DNA of 12,150 bases from a virus (IMGVR_UViG_2681813004_000020:1-12150), one strand, 5' to 3'. Shown: positions 1-11,185, numbered from the stretch's first letter. A program made the numbers and translations. Notes: a model not told the origin generated them from the sequence alone.

Positions 1-1284
1 TTACTTCTTCGCCTCTGCAACCACTTTACTACCCACGCCGCGGTTATTGTATTCCCACATGCGGTTGTAGTTAGTGTCATTCAGATTGCGCTGTATTTCG
101 TCGTTATCATCTACGCTGCCGGTATTACCCGCAAACGGACGATTAGAGATCACCGCATCGGCCCACGGTTTAGCCGTGTTAAAACCTTCGTTGATGGCGC
201 TATCACGGATCACCACCTGACCGTTGGTATTGGCATCAACATCCAGCGAGCGGCCCAGTTGCGCCACACCATCACCGAAAGCATTGAAACGGCTGTTTAC
301 GGCGAGGAAACCGTAGTAAATGTTGGACAGCGTAGCCGGTGCAAACACATACGCTTCTTGCTGAGTACGTGAGTTCACCACGCGGAATTCGGTGTTATCG
401 AACACCACTGCGCCGCGACCAGAAACGATATCCACATCCCCTTCAATGTAGCTGTTGGTCACCAGCGTACGCGGCTGACGGTTGGTTTCCAGACGGTTCT
501 GCACACCGCTGTTGGTGACAAAGAAGGTGTTCTGACGACCGAGAATGTTAACGTTGTTAATCTGTACCTGGTCACCATCAGTACGCAGTGCCACCGCCGG
601 ATGGTTACCTGCATCTACGCTATCGCCCAGCGTGTTTTCGATGGTCAGATTTTGCAGTTGCAGGCCATTGTTTTGTGACCAGAAGACCGCAGAGCAGAGA
701 ACACCGATACTGTCGCTGCGTTTGCTCTGGCAGCTATCGTACATATACCACGCTGGTTTACCTGGCATATATTTGCCGCGCGGGTTGACGTCGTGACGCC
801 AGTCGGCAGGGCTCATGCCACCATCAAGGGAAAGCCCAATCTTCACATCAATCGGTTTTTCACCTGTACCGTACAGAGTAATTCCACCCGGAGCGGCAGG
901 GACATATACCGTTCCCTGATACTCACCAGGCATCACGGCAATATACTGGCGCTTGTTGGTACGCTTGATAATTGCCGCATCTACCGCCGCCTGAATCGTG
1001 GTATGCGTTACACCTTGAGTGCCCGCCGGGCCGACAATAAAGTCAGGTTGCGCAGGCAGGGTAATCGGGGAAGGATTCCACGCTGCAGCACCTGGTGTCA
1101 GGGATGCAAAATAGTGTTGAGCATCGAAATTCTGCGCTTCTTTTGCCGACAGAATCGGGCGAGAAGAGGTACCAGGCGCGGTTTGATCAGAAGGACGTTG
1201 ATCGGGCGGGGTTGAGCTACAGGCGGTCAGCGTCACGCCAAAAGCCAATGCCAGCGCCAGACGGGAAACTGAAAATGTGTTCAC
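1..1284 (-). CDS. ybhC: YbhC, pectinesterase-fold outer-membrane lipoprotein (acyl-CoA thioesterase), the host gene flanking lambda attB
   Basis: 427-codon ORF filling the window start; N-terminus MNTFSVSRLALALAFGVTLTAC has a signal peptide and lipobox Cys; GTG start at 1284..1282, TAA stop at 3..1; sits directly beside the lambda att core, as in E. coli. Confidence 0.85.
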   Translation of the reverse strand: MNTFSVSRLALALAFGVTLTACSSTPPDQRPSDQTAPGTSSRPILSAKEAQNFDAQHYFASLTPGAAAWNPSPITLPAQPDFIVGPAGTQGVTHTTIQAAVDAAIIKRTNKRQYIAVMPGEYQGTVYVPAAPGGITLYGTGEKPIDVKIGLSLDGGMSPADWRHDVNPRGKYMPGKPAWYMYDSCQSKRSDSIGVLCSAVFWSQNNGLQLQNLTIENTLGDSVDAGNHPAVALRTDGDQVQINNVNILGRQNTFFVTNSGVQNRLETNRQPRTLVTNSYIEGDVDIVSGRGAVVFDNTEFRVVNSRTQQEAYVFAPATLSNIYYGFLAVNSRFNAFGDGVAQLGRSLDVDANTNGQVVIRDSAINEGFNTAKPWADAVISNRPFAGNTGSVDDNDEIQRNLNDTNYNRMWEYNNRGVGSKVVAEAKK

Positions 1285-1330
1285 AGGTTGCTCCGGGCTA
1301 TGAAATAGAAAAATGAATCCGTTGAAGCCT

Positions 1331-1420
1331 GCTTTTTTATACTAAGTTGGCATTATAAAAAAGTATTGCTTATCAATTTGTTGCAACGAACAGGTCACTA
1401 TCAGTCAAAATAAAATCATT
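1331..1420. other. attL (B-O-P'): lambda att core plus P' arm with IHF and Int arm-type sites
   Basis: Exact 15-bp core GCTTTTTTATACTAA at 1331-1345; IHF-consensus TATCAATTTGTTG at 1371-1383; arm-type Int sites AGGTCACTAT and CAGTCAAAAT at 1392-1411; int stop follows at 1419. Confidence 0.9.
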
Positions 1421-2492
1421 ATTTGATTTCAATTTTGTCCCACTCCCTGCCTCTGTCATCACGATACTGTGATGCCATGGTGTCCGACTTATGCCCGAGA
1501 AGATGTTGAGCAAACTTATCGCTTATCTGCTTCTCATAGAGTCTTGCAGACAAACTGCGCAACTCGTGAAAGGTCGGCGGATCCCCTTCGAAGGAAAGAC
1601 CTGATGCTTTTCGTGCGCGCATAAAATACCTTGATACTGTGCCGGATGAAAGCGGTTCACGATGAGTAGATGCAATTATGGTTTCTCCGCCAAGAATCTC
1701 TTTGCATTTATCAAGTGTTTCCTTCATTGATATCCCGAGAGCATCAACATGCAATGTTGTAGGGATGGCAATTTTTACGCCTGTTTTGCTTTGCTCGACA
1801 TAAAGATATCCATCTACGATATCAGACCACTTCATTTCGCATAAATCACCAACTCGCTGCCCGGTAACAACAGCCAGCTCCATTGCAAGTCTTAGCCAAC
1901 ATGGTGATGATTCTGCTGCTTGATAAATTTTCAGGTATTCGTCAGCCGTAAGTCTTGATCTCCTTACCTCTGATTTTGCTGCGCGAGTGGCAGCGACCGG
2001 GTTTGTTGTTATATGGCCTTCTTCAGCTATTGCCTCTCGGAATGCATCGCTCAGTGTTGATCTGATTAACTTGGCTGACGCCGCCTTGCCCTCGTCTATG
2101 TATCCACTGAGCATTGCCGCAATTTCTTTTGTGGTGATGTCTTCAAGTGGAGCATCAGGCAGCCCCCTCCTTATTGCTTTAATTTTGCTCATGTAATTTA
2201 TGAGAGTCTTCTGCTTGATTCCTCTGCTGGCGAGGATTTTTTCGTAGCGATCAAGCCATGAATGTAACGTAACAGAATTATCACTGTTGATTCTCGCTGT
2301 CAGAGGCTTGTGTTTGTGTCCTGAAAATAACTCAATGTTGGCCTGTATTGCTTCAGTGATTGCTATCCTCCTGTCTCGGCCTAATCCAAACTCTTTACCC
2401 GTCCTTGGGTCCCTGTAGCAGTAATATCCATTGTTTCTTATATAAAGATTAGGGGGTAAATCCCGGCGCTCATGACTTCGCCTTCTTCCCAT
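1419..2492 (-). CDS. int: Tyrosine integrase, lambda Int type
   Basis: 357-aa ORF starting MGRRRSHERRDLPPNLYIRNNGYYCYRDPRTGKEF, recalled as near-identical to lambda Int; catalytic elements HELR, LLGH and the Tyr in SQYRDD are present; ATG start; adjacent to attL. Confidence 0.95.
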   Translation of the reverse strand: MGRRRSHERRDLPPNLYIRNNGYYCYRDPRTGKEFGLGRDRRIAITEAIQANIELFSGHKHKPLTARINSDNSVTLHSWLDRYEKILASRGIKQKTLINYMSKIKAIRRGLPDAPLEDITTKEIAAMLSGYIDEGKAASAKLIRSTLSDAFREAIAEEGHITTNPVAATRAAKSEVRRSRLTADEYLKIYQAAESSPCWLRLAMELAVVTGQRVGDLCEMKWSDIVDGYLYVEQSKTGVKIAIPTTLHVDALGISMKETLDKCKEILGGETIIASTHREPLSSGTVSRYFMRARKASGLSFEGDPPTFHELRSLSARLYEKQISDKFAQHLLGHKSDTMASQYRDDRGREWDKIEIK

Positions 2493-5714: not shown

Positions 5715-5875
5715 TTCTTCCCACTCCGCCACATCGCATTCAGATATTTGTTGTCATTAACAGAACCGAAACTCTTTCTCTTAAGCAATTCCTCTCTCGA
5801 TGGCATTGGCTTTGCGCGTTGGCGAATAATCATTTCTGCCGGAAGAATGCCGGGATTGTATGCAAGTCCTCTCAT
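5711..5875 (-). CDS. Hypothetical small protein, 54 aa ([54 protein letters not shown])
   Basis: ATG at 5875..5873 preceded by GAGGAA; an in-frame upstream ATG at 5893 would give 60 aa; start lies inside copy 1 of the 109-bp tandem duplication. Confidence 0.45.
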
Positions 5876-6049
5876 GGTAAATTCCTCAGTCATTACTGAT
5901 AGCGCCATAGCGTGAGCGGTAATTACGCAGGCGCGGGTCAATTTCTGCCGGAAGAATGCCGGGATTGTATGCAAGTCCTCTCATGGTAAATTCCTCAGTC
6001 ATTACTGATAGCGCCATAGCGTGAGCGGTAATTACGCAGGCGCGGGTCA
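5832..6049. repeat. Perfect tandem duplication, 2 x 109 bp (5832-5940 and 5941-6049), with 5-bp microhomology ATTTC continuing at 6050-6054
   Basis: Base-by-base comparison: the two units are identical; the flanks differ (C at 5831, AGGG at 6055). Confidence 0.95.
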
Positions 6050-6288
6050 ATTTCAGGGAAGTGGGTATATGTGGCTTTGCGGAATGGTCGGATTGATGTC
6101 TGGTAAATTCGCTCGCGTTCTTCTTTCTCTGCAAGCCATATACAATGGCGAAATTCCTTTTCCTCTTTCGTTTCCTGCGGTAGCGACATTATCCGATCGT
6201 AGTTTTTTCTGAATTTATCCAGCACCTCCGATACGGAATTGCCGGAACAGCGGCGCGCGTCATCCGCACCATACAGAGGCGCTGGCAT
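5995..6288 (-). CDS. Hypothetical protein A1, 97 aa (MPAPLYGADDARRCSGNSVSEVL...), paralog of the 8937-9119 gene
   Basis: ATG at 6288 preceded by CAGGAGAAAAC; stop lies inside copy 2 of the 109-bp duplication; first 30 nt identical to the paralog. Confidence 0.6.
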   Translation of the reverse strand: MPAPLYGADDARRCSGNSVSEVLDKFRKNYDRIMSLPQETKEEKEFRHCIWLAEKEERERIYQTSIRPFRKATYTHFPEIDPRLRNYRSRYGAISND

Positions 6289-6304: not shown

Positions 6305-6853
6305 TTATTTAGCTAACTTTTTCCAGATCGCTGAAACGTATTTGGCTTGGTGAATGGCATCATCAAGCGCGTTGTGGCGAGTTCCTTTGAATGGCATATC
6401 TCGCTTAGGGTCTAATCCTATTACCTTCCCAAGTTCGACGATTGTTCTTACGTCGCGGTCATTCCACCACTGCCACGGAACTGGCTGCCCTGTCAGCGAA
6501 TAACTGTTTCGGAGAATAACGCAGTCAAATGATGCTCCATTCCCCCAAACCTGAACGAATTTGTGGTTAGCGTTCTTTATGATGAATTCAGATAACCATG
6601 AAAGAGCCGTTGAAAGCTCCTGAGTGTTGCTGGTTAGCGATTTTCTGGCTTCTTCACTCTGTTCCAGCCACCATAAAATCGTTGAAGCGTCAGGACGCGC
6701 CCGATATCGCATTGATGACTCAAGCGAGATATTTACCGAGAACTCTTCTCCTGTTTCTCCGGTATTCGGGTCAAAGAATACCGCCCCAATAGAAATAACT
6801 GGCGCATATGGCCCGTTGCCCATTGTTTCAAGGTCAACCATTAAGTGATTCAT
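6305..6853 (-). CDS. DnaQ-like DEDDh 3'-5' exonuclease, 182 aa
   Basis: Exo I motif VDLETMG near the N-terminus and H-x4-D motif HNALDDA near the C-terminus; AAGGA SD; lies next to ssb as in many prophage recombination modules. Confidence 0.8.
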   Translation of the reverse strand: MNHLMVDLETMGNGPYAPVISIGAVFFDPNTGETGEEFSVNISLESSMRYRARPDASTILWWLEQSEEARKSLTSNTQELSTALSWLSEFIIKNANHKFVQVWGNGASFDCVILRNSYSLTGQPVPWQWWNDRDVRTIVELGKVIGLDPKRDMPFKGTRHNALDDAIHQAKYVSAIWKKLAK

Positions 6854-6861
6854 GTAAGTCC

Positions 6862-7368
6862 TTAAATTGCGTGAATAGCGTGACGAGGGAAGGGGAGAGT
6901 TACTGGTGCAAAGGGTATATCGTCGTCAAAATCCATCGGAGGTTCGTTGTGTTGTGCTGGTGATGATTGCTGCTGTGGCTTCTGTGATTGCCTGCTGGCT
7001 GCTTGTTGTTTGCTGTCGCCAATTCCGCCAAGCATTTGCATCACGCCATTAATTCCGACATGAACCTCGGTTGTGTAACGGTCTTGCCCTGACTGGTCTT
7101 TCCACTTTCTGGTTCTCAGCATTCCCTCGAAATAAATCTGATCACCTTTTTTCACATACTGCCCCACGACCTCAGCCAGTTTCCCGGATACAGCAACACG
7201 ATGCCATTCAGTCAATTCCTTTTGCTCGCCAGTATTTTTATCTCGCCATTGTTCTGACGTGGCTATTGTCAGGTTAGCGAACGCTGTACCTGATGGTGAG
7301 TATCGAACTTCCGGGTCTTGTCCTACCCGACCAAGGATAATCACCTTATTTACGCCTCTGCTTGCCAT
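6862..7368 (-). CDS. ssb: Single-stranded DNA-binding protein (SSB) with an atypical 15-aa extension after the DDDIPF tip
   Basis: N-terminal [23 protein letters not shown]...[11 protein letters not shown] matches the E. coli SSB OB fold as recalled; Gln/Pro-rich linker; [11 protein letters not shown], then the frame continues [15 protein letters not shown] before TAA. Confidence 0.9.
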
Positions 7369-8076
7369 TTATGCCGCCTGTTTTAGTTCGTTAACTCTGA
7401 TGTTCATTACCTGAACGCATTTAGCCTGCGCCTCCTCATTGCCAGCCATTAATTGCCAGTCACGCTGATAACGCTCGATGAGTTTTTTCTTGTCAGTTTC
7501 TGTTGACGCATAATCGCTGAAGTCTTTCAGGATTTGTTCGCAGTCAACCGATGGAGATTTCTGGTTGGTATTTTCTGGTGATGGTTTGTTATCTGATGCT
7601 GGTATTGCCCATCCCGGCAGCGATGGAGGGAGCCAGTAAAATCCTGTTCCATCCTTGAGTTTTGCCCTGTGCCATCCCTGCTTTTTATCGAGAGATGTTT
7701 GTGCGAAACCTTCCTCAAGGTTATACAGATACCGACCGATTCCCCACTGAACGGCAGCGCGCTTCATTGCACCGGAACGACCACCTTTGACGGCTTCTAC
7801 CTGCGTGTTTTCAGCAGCATCCCATTTGGTTACCCATTCGGAATCAATCTTTATTGATATGCCGCATTCAACGCCGCCGTTGTTGGGAATATCGCGGTAT
7901 TCATTGCGCCATCCTGCTTTGCCGCAAACATCGTCCAGGCGTTTCATGATTGCCCGGTTCGTTACATAAGCCAGCACCATAGCCCACACTTTGCCATCGC
8001 GTGTTTTACCGCTTTGCTGTATTCGCCATTCGATATCTTCAGGGCTGAATGGCTCATCGAATTTATTCAAATCCAT
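7369..8076 (-). CDS. Rad52-type single-strand annealing protein, 235 aa
   Basis: Motif GAMKRAAVQWGIGRYLYNL resembles the Rad52 signature GLKRALRSFGNALG; GAGGTGA SD; directly upstream of ssb. Confidence 0.65.
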   Translation of the reverse strand: MDLNKFDEPFSPEDIEWRIQQSGKTRDGKVWAMVLAYVTNRAIMKRLDDVCGKAGWRNEYRDIPNNGGVECGISIKIDSEWVTKWDAAENTQVEAVKGGRSGAMKRAAVQWGIGRYLYNLEEGFAQTSLDKKQGWHRAKLKDGTGFYWLPPSLPGWAIPASDNKPSPENTNQKSPSVDCEQILKDFSDYASTETDKKKLIERYQRDWQLMAGNEEAQAKCVQVMNIRVNELKQAA

Positions 8077-8602: not shown

Positions 8603-8664
8603 GGGTAACTCCTTATATTTGATTGCATAACGAAAACGCCTCGAGTGAAGCGTTATTGGTATGC

Positions 8665-8692
8665 ATATAAAAAAGCCCTCACACTGGAGGGC
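8665..8692 (-). terminator. Intrinsic terminator inside repeat copy 1
   Basis: Minus strand GCCCTC-CAGTGT-GAGGGC followed by TTTTTTATAT; a second weaker hairpin AACGCTTC-ACTC-GAGGCGTT then TTCGTT lies at plus 8635-8654. Confidence 0.6.
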
Positions 8693-8785
8693 AAAGAAGA
8701 TTTCCAATAATCAGAACAAGTCGGCTCCTGTTTAGTTACGAGCGACATTGCTCACATAGCAGACTCGCAAATCTGCTATAGGTGC

Positions 8786-8944
8786 TTATTCGCATCGCAT
8801 GACAACATCAAATTTTTCGAGATTACTTTGTCGCAACAATCCTTCTTCTACGCGGTCAGCTTTTCTATAATTATCAAATTCGAAATGTTTAATTACTTCT
8901 TTCGTTTCTCGCTCTATAACTTCAACAATGTATTTCTTATTCAT
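8786..8944 (-). CDS. Hypothetical small protein, 52 aa (MNKKYIVEVIERETKEVIKHFEFDNYRKADRVEEGLLRQSNLEKFDVVMRCE), copy 1
   Basis: Manual translation; ATG overlaps the stop of the upstream gene (GATGAATAA); weak SD; duplicated exactly at 11027-11185. Confidence 0.4.
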   Translation of the reverse strand: MNKKYIVEVIERETKEVIKHFEFDNYRKADRVEEGLLRQSNLEKFDVVMRCE

Positions 8945-9119
8945 CGTTCTCATCTTTTAACGCGAGTTGTATATCGCGTCGGTACATCCGTTCTGCTTTT
9001 GTTTCTGGTGGCAGATCAATAAACGTGTCGAAAATGTTTTTGATATTTTCCAGCACCTCCGCCTTGGAGCTACCGGAGCAATTGCGCGGGTCATCCGCAC
9101 CATACAGAGGCGCTGGCAT
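8937..9119 (-). CDS. Hypothetical protein A2, 60 aa (MPAPLYGADDPRNCSGSSKAEVL...), paralog of the 5995-6288 gene
   Basis: ATG at 9119; first 30 nt identical to A1, then diverging; TAA stop overlaps the start of the 52-aa ORF. Confidence 0.55.
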   Translation of the reverse strand: MPAPLYGADDPRNCSGSSKAEVLENIKNIFDTFIDLPPETKAERMYRRDIQLALKDENDE

Positions 9120-9142: not shown

Positions 9143-9730
9143 TCAGAAAGGAGGGTAATCGTTCTGGCTGTAACCATAATCATCTGCATGATTCTGGCTT
9201 ACGTTTTTAGAGCGATTGTCTTTATCTTTGAGATTGGCAACCATGTTGGCGATAGTTTCTGGTTGCTTGCCTTCTGCCTTTTCTTTAAGGGTTTGACCTG
9301 TTTGTGCAATAAACGGGATGCGTATTTCCATCTGGTAGCTGTCTGCGCCAGTCTTTTTGTTTGTGGTTAATACTTTCTGGAGCACTAACCCGATTTTCTT
9401 TCCATGAAATTCAGGTGCAACAAATTTACTGGCGGAAACCATATGCTGCGTTAATTGTCCAATCCCGGCACACCCCATCATGGCGTGAACGACATTTGCG
9501 CCAAATTTGTTTTCCGTGCCGTCATTTTTCTGAACACAGACGCTAAGATATTGGATTTTACGTCCGTCGTCGGATTCGCCAGAAAACTCAATAAATTTGG
9601 CTCCTTTTTCTGATTGCTTTAGTTCTGCTTCAGTAATGGTAATGATATGAGCACCAGTTTCGTTAATAAAACCACCTTGCCCTGCGGTCAGTGCTGCTTC
9701 TTCGTTATAAGTAAAAATCACGTTGCTCAT
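9143..9730 (-). CDS. Putative cognate ssDNA-binding partner of Sak4 (DUF669-like?), 195 aa, with an SSB-like C-terminal tail DYPPF
   Basis: ATGA overlap with the Sak4 stop; C-terminus ...HADDYGYSQNDYPPF resembles the acidic SSB tip DDDIPF; family assignment by context and tail only. Confidence 0.5.
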   Translation of the reverse strand: MSNVIFTYNEEAALTAGQGGFINETGAHIITITEAELKQSEKGAKFIEFSGESDDGRKIQYLSVCVQKNDGTENKFGANVVHAMMGCAGIGQLTQHMVSASKFVAPEFHGKKIGLVLQKVLTTNKKTGADSYQMEIRIPFIAQTGQTLKEKAEGKQPETIANMVANLKDKDNRSKNVSQNHADDYGYSQNDYPPF

Positions 9731-10407
9731 GCGGCGTTTTCCTTAATTTGATGAACATTATTGATGCCGTAGTAATCACAAACAGTGGCATCGACGAAAG
9801 AGAGATCGTTATCAATCTCATTGGAATCAAACATTCCCATTGGGGATTTAACAGTGTCTGCACCGTTGTTTTTTGTGGTGAAAAAGAACTGGTCATCACG
9901 GGTAAGGGTGCGAAGAACTATAGTAAACATGCCTTCGACAGTGATTTTCTCGTCCAGCATTTTGCCGATAGTCTTCATTTTCACACGCCCCATAGGAGTT
10001 TCTTCGGTGTGCGCAAGAAAATAGACTCTCAGGTCATCAGGCGCATCCTGCGCAGCCTTAATGACCTCCCATGCGTGACGGCCTATCTCAGTAAATTTAT
10101 CAAACGATTTTTCTTCTGAGCGGCGCATAAACTCATTGCTCATCACATACTGGAAGTCATCAACAATAACGATTCTTTTCCCGTATTCGTGAGCACGCTT
10201 AATTACGGCAACTATTACGTCCCATTTGTCAGTGGTAACTACGGTTCCTTTTTTTGCTCTGGCATCCCATGCAAGCCAGTCTTTTGATTTAAATGGTAGC
10301 GGCTTGCCTATTGGTTTTATAAGTATTGCTTCCTCTGGATTGATATTTCTCATGCTGGTTGATTTTCCGGTGCCAGACTCACCGAGTATTAATGTCGCAG
10401 TTCCCAT
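9727..10407 (-). CDS. Sak4-like RecA-core P-loop ATPase (AAA_24-type phage recombination protein), 226 aa
   Basis: Walker A GESGTGKS at residues 9-16, Walker B-like IVIVDD; size and position downstream of kil, where lambda has its Red recombination genes; GAGG SD. Confidence 0.7.
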   Translation of the reverse strand: MGTATLILGESGTGKSTSMRNINPEEAILIKPIGKPLPFKSKDWLAWDARAKKGTVVTTDKWDVIVAVIKRAHEYGKRIVIVDDFQYVMSNEFMRRSEEKSFDKFTEIGRHAWEVIKAAQDAPDDLRVYFLAHTEETPMGRVKMKTIGKMLDEKITVEGMFTIVLRTLTRDDQFFFTTKNNGADTVKSPMGMFDSNEIDNDLSFVDATVCDYYGINNVHQIKENAA

Positions 10408-10847: not shown

Positions 10848-10905
10848 GGTGTGCTCCTTATTTATACATAACGAAAACGCCTCGAGTGAAGCGTTATTGG
10901 TATGC

Positions 10906-10933
10906 ATATAAAAAAGCCCTCACACTGGAGGGC
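10906..10933 (-). terminator. Intrinsic terminator inside repeat copy 2
   Basis: Same GCCCTC-CAGTGT-GAGGGC plus U-tract as in copy 1. Confidence 0.6.
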
Positions 10934-11026
10934 AAAGAAGATTTCCAATAATCAGAACAAGTCGGCTCCTGTTTAGTTACGAGCGACATTGCTCACATAG
11001 CAGACTCGCAAATCTGCTATAGGTGC

Positions 11027-11185
11027 TTATTCGCATCGCATGACAACATCAAATTTTTCGAGATTACTTTGTCGCAACAATCCTTCTTCTACGCGGTCAG
11101 CTTTTCTATAATTATCAAATTCGAAATGTTTAATTACTTCTTTCGTTTCTCGCTCTATAACTTCAACAATGTATTTCTTATTCAT
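11027..11185 (-). CDS. Hypothetical small protein, 52 aa, copy 2 (one extra in-frame ATG upstream)
   Basis: Identical to 8786-8944; here preceded by GGGGAAGA, and the ATG overlaps the stop of the 98-aa gene. Confidence 0.4.
   Translation of the reverse strand: MNKKYIVEVIERETKEVIKHFEFDNYRKADRVEEGLLRQSNLEKFDVVMRCE

What the first reader, a model, noticed from the sequence alone, without database searches (positions are those of the whole stretch)
6862..6909. SSB reading frame runs 15 codons past the conserved DDDIPF tip
Across bacterial and phage SSBs the C-terminal DDDIPF with a free carboxylate on the final Phe is the docking tip for partner proteins. Here DDDIPF is followed in frame by [15 protein letters not shown] before TAA, ending 8 nt before the exonuclease ATG. 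This could be a lost stop codon, a sequencing error, or a real masked-tip variant with altered partner binding.
Basis: partly seen in the sequence, partly recalled or inferred. Interest (0 to 1): 0.55.

Follow-up and report, generated by a model that had tools for sequence, protein, structure and literature searches.

The report
Conserved cap on SSB docking tip
The 15 extra residues after the DDDIPF tip of this prophage SSB are real: they are a conserved, selected "cap" shared by SSBs of many phages, plasmids and integrative elements, and a mobile endonuclease gene splits it off in sister phages.

Summary
The ssb gene (6862..7368, minus strand) encodes ...[24 protein letters not shown], then TAA, 8 nt before the exonuclease ATG.

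It is not an error or a one-off lost stop:
- The same junction occurs in phages mEp235, mEpX2, HK75, epsilon34, g341c, CP-1639 and ECP1, and in 297 of 5,426 complete E. coli genomes.
- 111 of the 120 best SSB relatives carry a 15-residue extension. Related tails occur on SSBs of IncN, IncT and IncF-like plasmids, ICE-like elements and phages of other Enterobacterales and Vibrio, beside four different annealase families.
- The tail is under purifying selection (pN 0.28 vs pS 0.67, p = 4e-5) and is predicted disordered.
- The tip itself stays the most conserved segment of the protein.

In about 27% of E. coli loci, an HNH-like endonuclease gene sits exactly between the Phe and Ala codons. It gives SSB a stop and a free tip, and uses the 14 tail codons as its own C-terminus. 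The window holds the empty-site allele.

How the cap works is inferred, not shown. It removes the free Phe carboxylate that host partners anchor, so it probably changes partner choice. I found no published description.

The parts
6862..7368 (-). ssb gene, 168 aa: OB fold, Gln/Pro-rich linker, acidic tip, 15-residue cap
   Evidence: ORF and translation. PF00436 E = 1.6e-36. AF2 model: OB fold pLDDT 73-89, residues 115-168 about 30.
6910..6945 (-). codons for the canonical tip, [12 protein letters not shown] (residues 142-153)
   Evidence: Sequence. Lowest non-synonymous divergence of the protein, pN 0.07.
6865..6909 (-). 15-codon cap, [15 protein letters not shown] (residues 154-168)
   Evidence: The last 45 nt of the gene (14 cap codons plus the stop) are identical in 23 of 26 phage records. 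111 of 120 relatives have a 15-aa extension. pN 0.28 vs pS 0.67, p = 4e-5.
6862..6864 (-). TAA stop of ssb; also the point where the downstream module switches (exo or abc2) among phages
6907..6912 (-). TTT|GCA junction: empty insertion site of the HNH-like endonuclease gene found in Sf6, N7, IME10, CurroJimenez, Huey and about 108 E. coli genomes
   Evidence: Some HNH copies keep the Ala codon (P0021; GAG GCA/GCG CCA).
6305..6853 (-). Rv2179c-like (DnaQ-type) 3'-5' exonuclease, starting 8 nt after the ssb stop
   Evidence: PF16473 E = 3.8e-73; phrog_255.
7369..8076 (-). Rad52/Rad22-type single-strand annealing protein, directly upstream of ssb
   Evidence: PF04098 E = 5e-26.
5995..6288 (-). 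Abc2 anti-RecBCD protein; completes the recombination module
   Evidence: PF11043 E = 5.6e-63.

Best explanation
The gene is an intact member of a widespread subfamily of SSBs carried by mobile elements: temperate phages, conjugative plasmids and ICE-like elements of Enterobacterales and Vibrio. In this subfamily the canonical acidic tip ...DFDDDIPF is followed by a conserved, disordered cap of about 15 residues. The consensus is roughly [AS]P-hydrophobic-[TG]-L-x-[FY]-x-[RK]-H-x-[IV]-[HY]-[AVS]-[IL].

Shown:
- The cap is old, keeps its length, and is under purifying selection.
- It travels with the tip on different SSB bodies.
- It does not depend on which annealase or nuclease lies next to ssb.
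- In sister phages an HNH-like endonuclease gene is inserted exactly between the Phe and Ala codons. It brings a stop codon, so SSB gets a free IPF tip, and it reads into the cap codons as its own C-terminus. The window carries the empty-site allele.

Inferred:
- The cap makes Phe153 internal, so it removes the alpha-carboxylate that host SSB-interacting proteins anchor with their 'basic lip'. Docking of host partners such as ExoI, RecQ, PriA and chi should therefore be weakened or changed.
- The still-conserved tip plus the cap probably forms a longer linear motif for another partner, or for regulated exposure of the tip.
- The endonuclease probably targets the conserved tip codons. The variant tips linked to it (DDSDIPF, DDEIPF, DDQDIPF) would then be immunity or co-conversion polymorphisms.
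For: Reality and spread:
- 100% identity to mEp235, and the same SSB in mEpX2, HK75, epsilon34, g341c.
- The junction is in 297 of 5,426 complete E. coli genomes.
- 111 of the 120 best SSB clusters carry a 15-aa extension, in Klebsiella, Citrobacter, Enterobacter, Kluyvera, Pluralibacter, Phytobacter and Salmonella.
- Divergent tails occur in Tatumella, Mixta, Xenorhabdus, Erwinia, Brenneria and Pectobacterium, in IncN, IncT and IncF-like plasmids, and in a Vibrio plasmid.

Context independence: the upstream neighbour is Rad52, AAA_24, ERF or RecT, or the gene sits in a TopB-DUF3577-SSB-DUF29 ICE-like context.

Selection:
- pN is 0.16 for the OB fold, 0.49 for the linker, 0.07 for the tip and 0.27 for the tail, with pS 0.63-0.9.
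- Five disjoint pairs give pS 0.67, pN 0.28, binomial p = 4e-5.

Portability: tip plus tail occurs on a phrog_743 (HK620-type) body and on a divergent body.

Disorder: pLDDT is about 30 for residues 115-168.

The tail is native to SSB, not to the HNH:
- Distant HNH homologues end right after ...KPxYP(E/D) with unrelated short tails.
- The PHROG match covers residues 1-143 only.
- In the HNH model pLDDT drops from 98 to 50 over the tail.
- In tail-less loci the same HNH sits after the Phe-stop and terminates in the flanking DNA.

Tip polymorphism: empty-site alleles are MDFDDDIPF in 76 of 93 cases. HNH-linked alleles are DDSDIPF in 16 of 18 and DDEIPF in 2 of 18, never DDDIPF.

Role of the alpha-carboxylate: PMC10164576.
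Against: - No binding, stability or genetic data exist for the cap. The mechanism is an inference from what is known about canonical SSB tips.
- The tip stays under very strong purifying selection in capped SSBs. That is unexpected if the cap simply inactivated it.
- About 27% of E. coli loci (98 + 10 genomes) and viable phages such as Sf6 carry an uncapped SSB in the same module, so the cap is dispensable for viability.
- Among E. coli and Salmonella phages the 45-nt tail has no synonymous change while ssb bodies are saturated. Conservation there reflects recent sharing by recombination rather than selection on the peptide.
Confidence: 0.72

Rival explanations
1. The extension arose when the HNH gene between ssb and the downstream gene was deleted, fusing the ssb frame to the last 14 codons of the endonuclease. 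On this view the tail is endonuclease-derived debris.
For: The same 14 residues end the HNH ORF in Sf6, N7, CurroJimenez and Huey. Deletion chimeras in this region are frequent: P0011 and P0014 are SSB-HNH fusions, and P0024, P0053, P0060 and P0063 are HNH-exonuclease fusions. The linker codon differs by one base (GAA vs GCA).
Against: Capped SSBs occur on plasmids, ICE-like elements and phages of many genera with no HNH nearby. The conserved core of the HNH family ends before the tail, and other members carry unrelated tails taken from their flanks. The tail is disordered in the HNH model. Some HNH copies retain the SSB-type Ala codon. The codons to the left of the junction differ at synonymous sites among empty-site alleles, so the junction is old.
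Confidence: 0.06
2. The 45-nt tail is conserved as DNA, for example as a recombination boundary sequence between modules, the recognition site of the endonuclease, or a regulatory element. Its translation would then be incidental.
For: The 45 nt are identical in 23 of 26 phage records whose ssb bodies are 72-90% identical. Between the window and CP-1639, 72 of 79 synonymous sites differ in the OB fold but 0 of 12 in the tail. The downstream module (exo or abc2) switches exactly after the TAA.
Against: Outside the E. coli/Salmonella group the tail accumulates synonymous changes (pS 0.67) while the peptide is kept. The tail occurs with unrelated downstream genes on plasmids and ICE-like elements. 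There is no promoter-like or terminator-like site and no unusual RNA structure (z = -0.14). The HNH also inserts at tail-less alleles, so its target does not need the tail.
Confidence: 0.1
3. The cap is a stability or processing signal. Either it is a C-terminal degron that limits the lifetime of the mobile-element SSB, or it is a pro-peptide removed to expose a normal IPF tip. This would explain why the tip stays conserved.
For: The tip is the most conserved segment despite being internal. The cap ends in a conserved basic residue followed by hydrophobic residues at the C-terminus ([RK]-H-x-I-[HY]-A-[IL]). From my own memory, and untested here, this resembles C-terminal ClpX recognition motifs such as that of MuA. 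The cap is disordered.
Against: There is no direct evidence. No protease site or degron was tested. The middle of the cap (P-V-T-L-P-F-P) is as conserved as its end, which a simple C-terminal degron does not require.
Confidence: 0.15
4. The extension is neutral read-through after an ancient loss of the stop codon, tolerated because phage SSB is dispensable, and spread by hitch-hiking.
For: Uncapped alleles (tip-stop, with or without HNH) exist in close relatives. Lambdoid phages often lack an ssb gene altogether (PMC12315714).
Against: Length is invariant at 15 residues over 111 clusters. Substitutions are conservative. There is a significant deficit of non-synonymous change. The tail is more conserved than the linker of the same protein. 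The tail travels with the tip onto other SSB bodies.
Confidence: 0.06
5. A sequencing or assembly error removed a stop codon after the Phe codon in this window.
For: None beyond the oddity itself.
Against: The identical sequence is present in many independent phage and genome records.
Confidence: 0.01

Closest known systems
Canonical bacterial SSB (E. coli SSB, PDB 1EQQ/4MZ9) with the SSB-Ct tip DDDIPF
   Same: OB fold (PF00436), disordered Gln/Pro-rich linker, and an identical tip sequence [11 protein letters not shown]. About 60-70% identity in the OB fold.
   Different: In canonical SSB the Phe is the last residue, and its alpha-carboxylate is anchored by a basic lip in partner proteins. 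Deleting that Phe abolishes binding and is lethal (PMC10164576). Here 15 conserved residues follow the Phe.
Phage HK620 SSB (SSB-2, phrog_743) and its Sak4 partner
   Same: A phage recombination-module SSB whose C-terminal peptide (NDYPPF) is required for its cognate annealase to bind SSB-coated ssDNA (PMC5928155). This is precedent for phage SSB tails choosing partners. A homologue lies in this same window (9143..9730).
   Different: It has an unrelated body and its tail ends in a free Phe, with no cap.
Free-standing homing endonuclease genes that split a host gene ('genes in pieces', e.g. mobE in nrdA of Aeromonas phage Aeh1; PMC3045599, seen only as title and abstract)
   Same: A mobile endonuclease gene shows a presence/absence polymorphism at one precise site inside a conserved coding sequence. 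The host gene is cut into two reading frames and the larger piece stays functional.
   Different: Here the cut falls between the tip and the cap, so the upstream piece becomes a canonical SSB. The 14-residue downstream piece becomes the C-terminus of the endonuclease itself. The whole insert is in frame with a single stop codon (447 or 441 nt). Endonuclease activity and homing are not demonstrated.
Conjugative-plasmid SSBs (F, ColIb-P9, pED208 type)
   Same: Mobile-element copies of bacterial SSB. The pED208 SSB helps suppress mating-induced SOS and is translocated by the T4SS (PMC8406263). IncN, IncT and IncF-like plasmid SSBs found here carry the cap.
   Different: The papers I could search do not mention a post-tip extension. 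A T4SS signal cannot explain the phage copies.

Membership tests
Bacterial SSB family (PF00436) | N-terminal OB-fold ssDNA-binding domain | tested here: met
   PF00436 E = 1.6e-36 over residues 6-104. PDB SSBs match at E = 2e-59. The AF2 model has pLDDT 73-89 for the OB fold.
Bacterial SSB family (PF00436) | Disordered linker followed by the acidic tip D-D-D-I-P-F | tested here: met
   Residues 115-153 are Gln/Pro-rich with pLDDT about 30. The tip is [11 protein letters not shown].
Bacterial SSB family (PF00436) | The tip Phe is the C-terminal residue, with a free alpha-carboxylate for partner docking | tested here: not met
   Fifteen residues follow Phe153. PDB alignments stop at residue 153.
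Capped-tip SSBs of mobile elements (group defined in this report) | A tip followed by a 14-16 residue tail matching [AS/IL][PG]-hydrophobic-[TG]-[LF]-x-[FY]-x-x-[HK]-x-[IV]-[HY]-x-[ILM] | tested here: met
   The window tail [15 protein letters not shown] is the E. coli consensus.
Capped-tip SSBs of mobile elements (group defined in this report) | Located in a mobile element (phage recombination module, plasmid or ICE), not at the chromosomal ssb locus | tested here: met
   The window is a prophage next to ybhC, with integrase, Rad52-type annealase, exonuclease and Abc2. 69 of 80 mostly chromosomal SSB loci end at the tip.
Free-standing homing endonuclease gene polymorphism at the ssb 3' end | Presence/absence of the endonuclease gene at one precise site between otherwise homologous flanks | tested here: met
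   TTT|GCA-CCA (empty site) versus TTY-stop...HNH...GAR-CCA. 297 versus 108 E. coli genomes. The same holds for tail-less alleles.
Free-standing homing endonuclease gene polymorphism at the ssb 3' end | The inserted gene encodes an HNH / beta-beta-alpha-Me nuclease | tested here: inconclusive
Free-standing homing endonuclease gene polymorphism at the ssb 3' end | The enzyme cleaves the empty-site allele and is copied into it by repair (homing) | not testable with these tools
   Only indirect evidence: HNH-linked tips are never DDDIPF (0 of 18), whereas 76 of 93 empty sites are MDFDDDIPF.
Accidental read-through (lost stop codon or sequencing error) | Close relatives have a stop right after Phe at the same site, and the extension is not conserved | tested here: not met
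   111 of 120 relatives carry the extension at constant length. There is purifying selection on it.

The most novel reading that the evidence does not exclude
Mobile elements of Gammaproteobacteria (temperate phages, conjugative plasmids, ICEs) share a previously undescribed class of SSB. Its universal docking tip is capped by a conserved 15-residue linear motif that rewires the SSB interactome. It would blunt recruitment of host nucleases and helicases that need the free Phe carboxylate, and recruit a different, still unknown partner. A tip-specific homing endonuclease toggles phage SSBs between capped and uncapped states.
Probability: 0.35. Interest if true: 0.8.

Novelty: new variant of a known kind. 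Interest (0 to 1): 0.6.

Why it matters
The SSB C-terminal tip with its free Phe carboxylate is treated as the universal hub through which bacterial genome-maintenance proteins find ssDNA. It is also being pursued as an antibacterial target.

A large, selected family of mobile-element SSBs keeps the tip but buries it under a conserved cap. That would mean phages, plasmids and ICEs coat their ssDNA with an SSB that reads differently to the host machinery. This bears on several questions:
- how incoming or recombining mobile DNA escapes host nucleases and SOS induction;
- which SSB to pair with annealases in recombineering;
- how homing endonucleases exploit the most conserved codons of a gene.

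It is directly testable with peptides and with well-studied phages (mEp235, HK75, epsilon34, Sf6).

In practice, annotation pipelines call these proteins plain 'ssb' and often leave the Sf6-type endonuclease gene unannotated.

Tried and rejected
- **Sequencing error or private lost stop:** rejected.
- **Tail derived from the HNH by deletion:** this was my first working idea after seeing Sf6 gp26. I rejected it after the HNH family search, the wide SSB survey, the tail-less alleles and the HNH model.
- **Cap as the docking site for the neighbouring annealase or exonuclease:** rejected as a general explanation. Capped SSBs sit beside Rad52, AAA_24, ERF or RecT proteins, with or without the exonuclease, and on plasmids and ICE-like elements.
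- **T4SS translocation signal** (the idea came from PMC8406263): it cannot apply to phages.
- **DNA or RNA element in the tail:** no promoter-like or terminator-like site and no unusual RNA fold.
- **Programmed frameshift at CCC TTT G to produce a free tip:** reading the sequence by hand, both shifted frames give ...HQ-stop, not a canonical tip.
- **Searches that added little:**
  - The genome-contig scan returned mostly chromosomal ssb.
  - The second IMG/VR scan returned only near-identical relatives.
  - The 32-residue search of the 1.84-billion-protein library gave only 14 hits.
  - Foldseek of the HNH model against PDB was not significant.
  - Literature searches for the motif strings found nothing.
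- **Resemblances recalled from memory only, not tested:** hexapeptide clamp-binding motifs (Hda QLSLPL, Pol IV QLVLGL) and the ClpX C-terminal motif of MuA.

Full report
**1. Observation**

The minus-strand ORF 6862..7368 encodes a 168-residue protein. It has a clear SSB OB fold (PF00436, E = 1.6e-36) and the canonical tip [12 protein letters not shown] at residues 142-153. The frame then continues through 15 codons, [15 protein letters not shown] (6865-6909), to a TAA at 6862-6864. A Rv2179c-like 3'-5' exonuclease starts 8 nt later, at 6853. Fifteen sense codons after a missing stop would happen by chance about half the time, so the case rests on comparison with other sequences.

**2. Not an error and not private**

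The 701 nt around the gene are 100% identical to phage mEp235 and 99.9% identical to mEpX2. HK75 has the same ssb, and Salmonella phages epsilon34, g341c and NM-3 are 89.7% identical with the same tail. A 99-nt query across the junction is covered at 80% or more in 297 of 5,426 complete E. coli genomes, where PGAP calls the gene 'ssb'.

**3. The tail is shared with a mobile endonuclease gene**

In Sf6, ssb ends ...FDDSDIPF-TAG. Nine nt later starts gene 26 (159 aa), which ends ...[22 protein letters not shown], the same 14 residues. The 45-nt block (14 codons plus TAA) occurs in 26 phage records and is identical in 23 of them. Its left context is one of three:
- the ssb tip (TTT GCA CCA...);
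- one of two diverged endonuclease types, the Sf6 type or the Huey type;
- in Klebsiella phage phiKp_30, a decayed remnant of the endonuclease gene.

To the right, the sequence switches exactly after the TAA to either the exonuclease gene or abc2.

In complete E. coli genomes, 406 carry the tail block. Of these, 297 have it as an extended ssb, 98 with the Sf6-type gene and 10 with the Huey-type gene.

**4. Which came first**

I first suspected that a deletion of the endonuclease gene had fused ssb to its last codons. Deletion chimeras are common in this region (P0011, P0014, P0024, P0053). The evidence points the other way:

- a. Of the 120 best SSB relatives (66-93% identity), 111 carry an extension, always 15 residues. 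They come from Klebsiella, Citrobacter, Enterobacter, Kluyvera, Pluralibacter, Phytobacter and Salmonella as well as E. coli.
- b. More divergent tails of 14-16 residues follow the tip in several other groups:
  - Tatumella, Mixta, Xenorhabdus, Erwinia, Chimaeribacter, Brenneria and Pectobacterium;
  - IncN plasmids (...[23 protein letters not shown]);
  - an IncF-like Salmonella plasmid (IGHGYGVCRKAIYAIS);
  - an IncT Providencia plasmid (AGLGASFGKHTIHAIC);
  - a Vibrio plasmid (APIGLQFPAILHCM).
- c. Distant homologues of the endonuclease end right after the conserved ...EWHKHxKPxYP(E/D), with unrelated short tails. The PHROG profile matches residues 1-143 only. In the model, pLDDT falls from 98 to 50 over the tail.
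- d. The same endonuclease family always sits about 10 nt after an ssb Phe-stop, whatever the SSB body or the upstream annealase. In tail-less loci its ORF simply runs into the flanking intergenic DNA. The matching empty sites, tip-TGA followed by the same flank, exist.
- e. Some endonuclease copies still have the SSB-type Ala codon before CCA (P0021; GAG GCA/GCG CCA).

So the cap is native to the SSB. The endonuclease gene inserts immediately 3' of the Phe codon in both capped and uncapped alleles. The insert is in frame (447 or 441 nt) with a single stop.

**5. Selection on the cap**

I used an unbiased set of 18 capped genes, found through the SSB body rather than through the tail.

| Segment | pN | pS |
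|---|---|---|
| OB fold | 0.16 | 0.74 |
| Linker | 0.49-0.52 | 0.77-0.81 |
| Tip | 0.06-0.07 | 0.88-0.90 |
| Tail | 0.27-0.40 | 0.63-0.70 |

Five disjoint pairs give 39 synonymous and 46 non-synonymous changes in the tail, where 74% non-synonymous is expected (binomial p = 4e-5). The most constant positions are P2, G/T4, L5, F/Y7, P8, H10, I/V12, H/Y13 and I/L15.

The tail is therefore constrained as a peptide. It is less constrained than the tip and more than the linker.

Within E. coli and Salmonella phages the picture differs. The 45 nt carry no synonymous change even where ssb bodies are saturated (window vs CP-1639: 72 of 79 synonymous sites changed in the OB fold, 0 of 12 in the tail). 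There, the tail belongs to a recently shared right-hand segment. The recombination joints fall before, at or inside the tip and tail region in different phages.

No promoter-like site, terminator-like site or unusual RNA fold lies in the tail.

**6. What the cap is likely to do**

AF2 predicts residues 115-168 as disordered (pLDDT about 30), so the cap behaves as a short linear motif.

Capped SSBs lie next to Rad52-type, AAA_24, ERF or RecT annealases, with or without the exonuclease. They also occur in TopB-DUF3577-SSB-DUF29 ICE-like contexts and on conjugative plasmids.

Tip plus cap also occurs on an HK620-type (phrog_743) body and on a divergent SSB body, so it moves as a unit.

Work on canonical SSB shows that partner pockets anchor the alpha-carboxylate of the terminal Phe with a basic lip. 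Deleting that Phe abolishes binding (PMC10164576). A cap makes the Phe internal. My best inference (roughly 0.4) is that the cap weakens or changes docking of host SSB-interacting proteins, and that tip plus cap forms a longer motif for another partner. Two observations temper this. The tip remains the most conserved segment. About a quarter of E. coli loci, and viable phages such as Sf6, carry an uncapped SSB. A degron or a removable pro-peptide is a live alternative (about 0.15).

**7. The endonuclease target**

Empty-site capped alleles are MDFDDDIPF in 76 of 93 IMG/VR loci. Endonuclease-linked alleles are DDSDIPF in 16 of 18 and DDEIPF in 2 of 18, never DDDIPF. DDQDIPF and DDSDIPF appear in other genera. 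A different HNH (T7 gp7.7-like) follows DDEIPF in ES18.

This fits a homing endonuclease that recognises the highly conserved tip codons, with linked variants that resist cleavage or are co-converted. The counts are not phylogenetically independent, and no cleavage data exist.

**8. Comparison with what is known**

The protein meets every SSB criterion except the defining position of the tip at the C-terminus. Searches of the held literature for the motif strings found nothing. A 2025 survey of lambdoid recombination modules states that these 'SSB-1' proteins have not been studied experimentally and does not mention the extension (PMC12315714). The epsilon34 genome paper does not mention it either.

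The nearest functional precedent is HK620 SSB, whose NDYPPF tail is needed for its Sak4 partner (PMC5928155). The nearest precedent for the insertion is a homing endonuclease that splits nrdA in phage Aeh1 (PMC3045599).

**9. Verdict**

The finding is real and is not an artefact. The extension is a conserved, selected cap on the SSB tip. It is widespread on mobile elements and, as far as I could search, undescribed. It comes with a mobile endonuclease polymorphism at exactly the tip/cap boundary. The biochemical consequence is unknown and is the main open question. I rate it a new variant of a known kind, interest 0.6.

Noticed in passing
window 9143..10407 (minus strand): There is a second recombination module in the same early-left region. 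It consists of a Sak4-like AAA_24 ATPase (9727..10407) and a 195-aa HK620-type SSB (9143..9730, phrog_743) ending ...NDYPPF, the tail shown to be essential for Sak4 stimulation in HK620. Two SSBs and two annealases in one module region are reported as rare in lambdoid phages (PMC12315714).
   Followed up: partly
window 8626-8925 and 10867-11166: A perfect 300-nt direct repeat (spacing 2241 nt) brackets the Sak4/SSB-2 module. The module looks as if it was inserted or duplicated between identical repeats. An assembly artefact is not excluded.
   Followed up: no
window 5832-6049: A perfect tandem duplication of 109 nt (5832-5940 and 5941-6049) spans the 3' end of abc2 and the DNA downstream. It creates overlapping ORFs with repeated peptide segments.
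   Followed up: no
window 8937..9119 (minus strand): An Abc2-like N-terminal fragment (MPAPLYGADDPRNCSG...) is 72% identical in DNA to the 5' part of the intact abc2 at 6160-6288. It is probably a remnant of a second Rec module junction.
   Followed up: no
window 1..2492: A ybhC-like gene (1..1284) is followed by a lambda-type integrase (1419..2492) and an excisionase-like ORF, so this is a prophage at the ybhC/att-lambda region. No complete E. coli genome or phage record covers 80% or more of the window, so this mosaic is not in those collections.
   Followed up: partly
   Followed up: partly
L012 1057-1560 and L014 1056-1559 (E. coli RefSeq genomes): PGAP leaves the Sf6-type HNH-like gene (159 aa) unannotated in the two RefSeq loci opened (L012, L014), and tail-only hits mostly show no feature; Sf6-type gene found in 98 genomes. 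The Huey type is annotated as 'hypothetical protein'.
   Followed up: partly
proteins P0011, P0014, P0024, P0053, P0060, P0063, P0199: Natural deletion chimeras occur in this region: SSB N-terminus fused to the HNH C-terminus (P0014, joined at a shared IVG), HNH-exonuclease fusions, and an Ead/Ea22-like protein fused to the SSB tip plus cap. They show frequent illegitimate deletions around the endonuclease gene.
   Followed up: no
proteins P0203, P0211, P0204: The tip-plus-cap module (e.g. ...[24 protein letters not shown]) occurs on an HK620-type SSB body (phrog_743) and on a divergent SSB body with no Pfam hit. P0203 and P0204 are fragments, so chimeric gene calls are not excluded.
   Followed up: partly
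L309 and L310 1960-2040; L218 2936-3005: Tail-less ssb alleles are followed by a conserved 80-nt spacer containing a GC-rich hairpin (GGAGGCGGCATAACTTCGCCTCC). The same spacer follows the HNH gene in L218.
   Followed up: no
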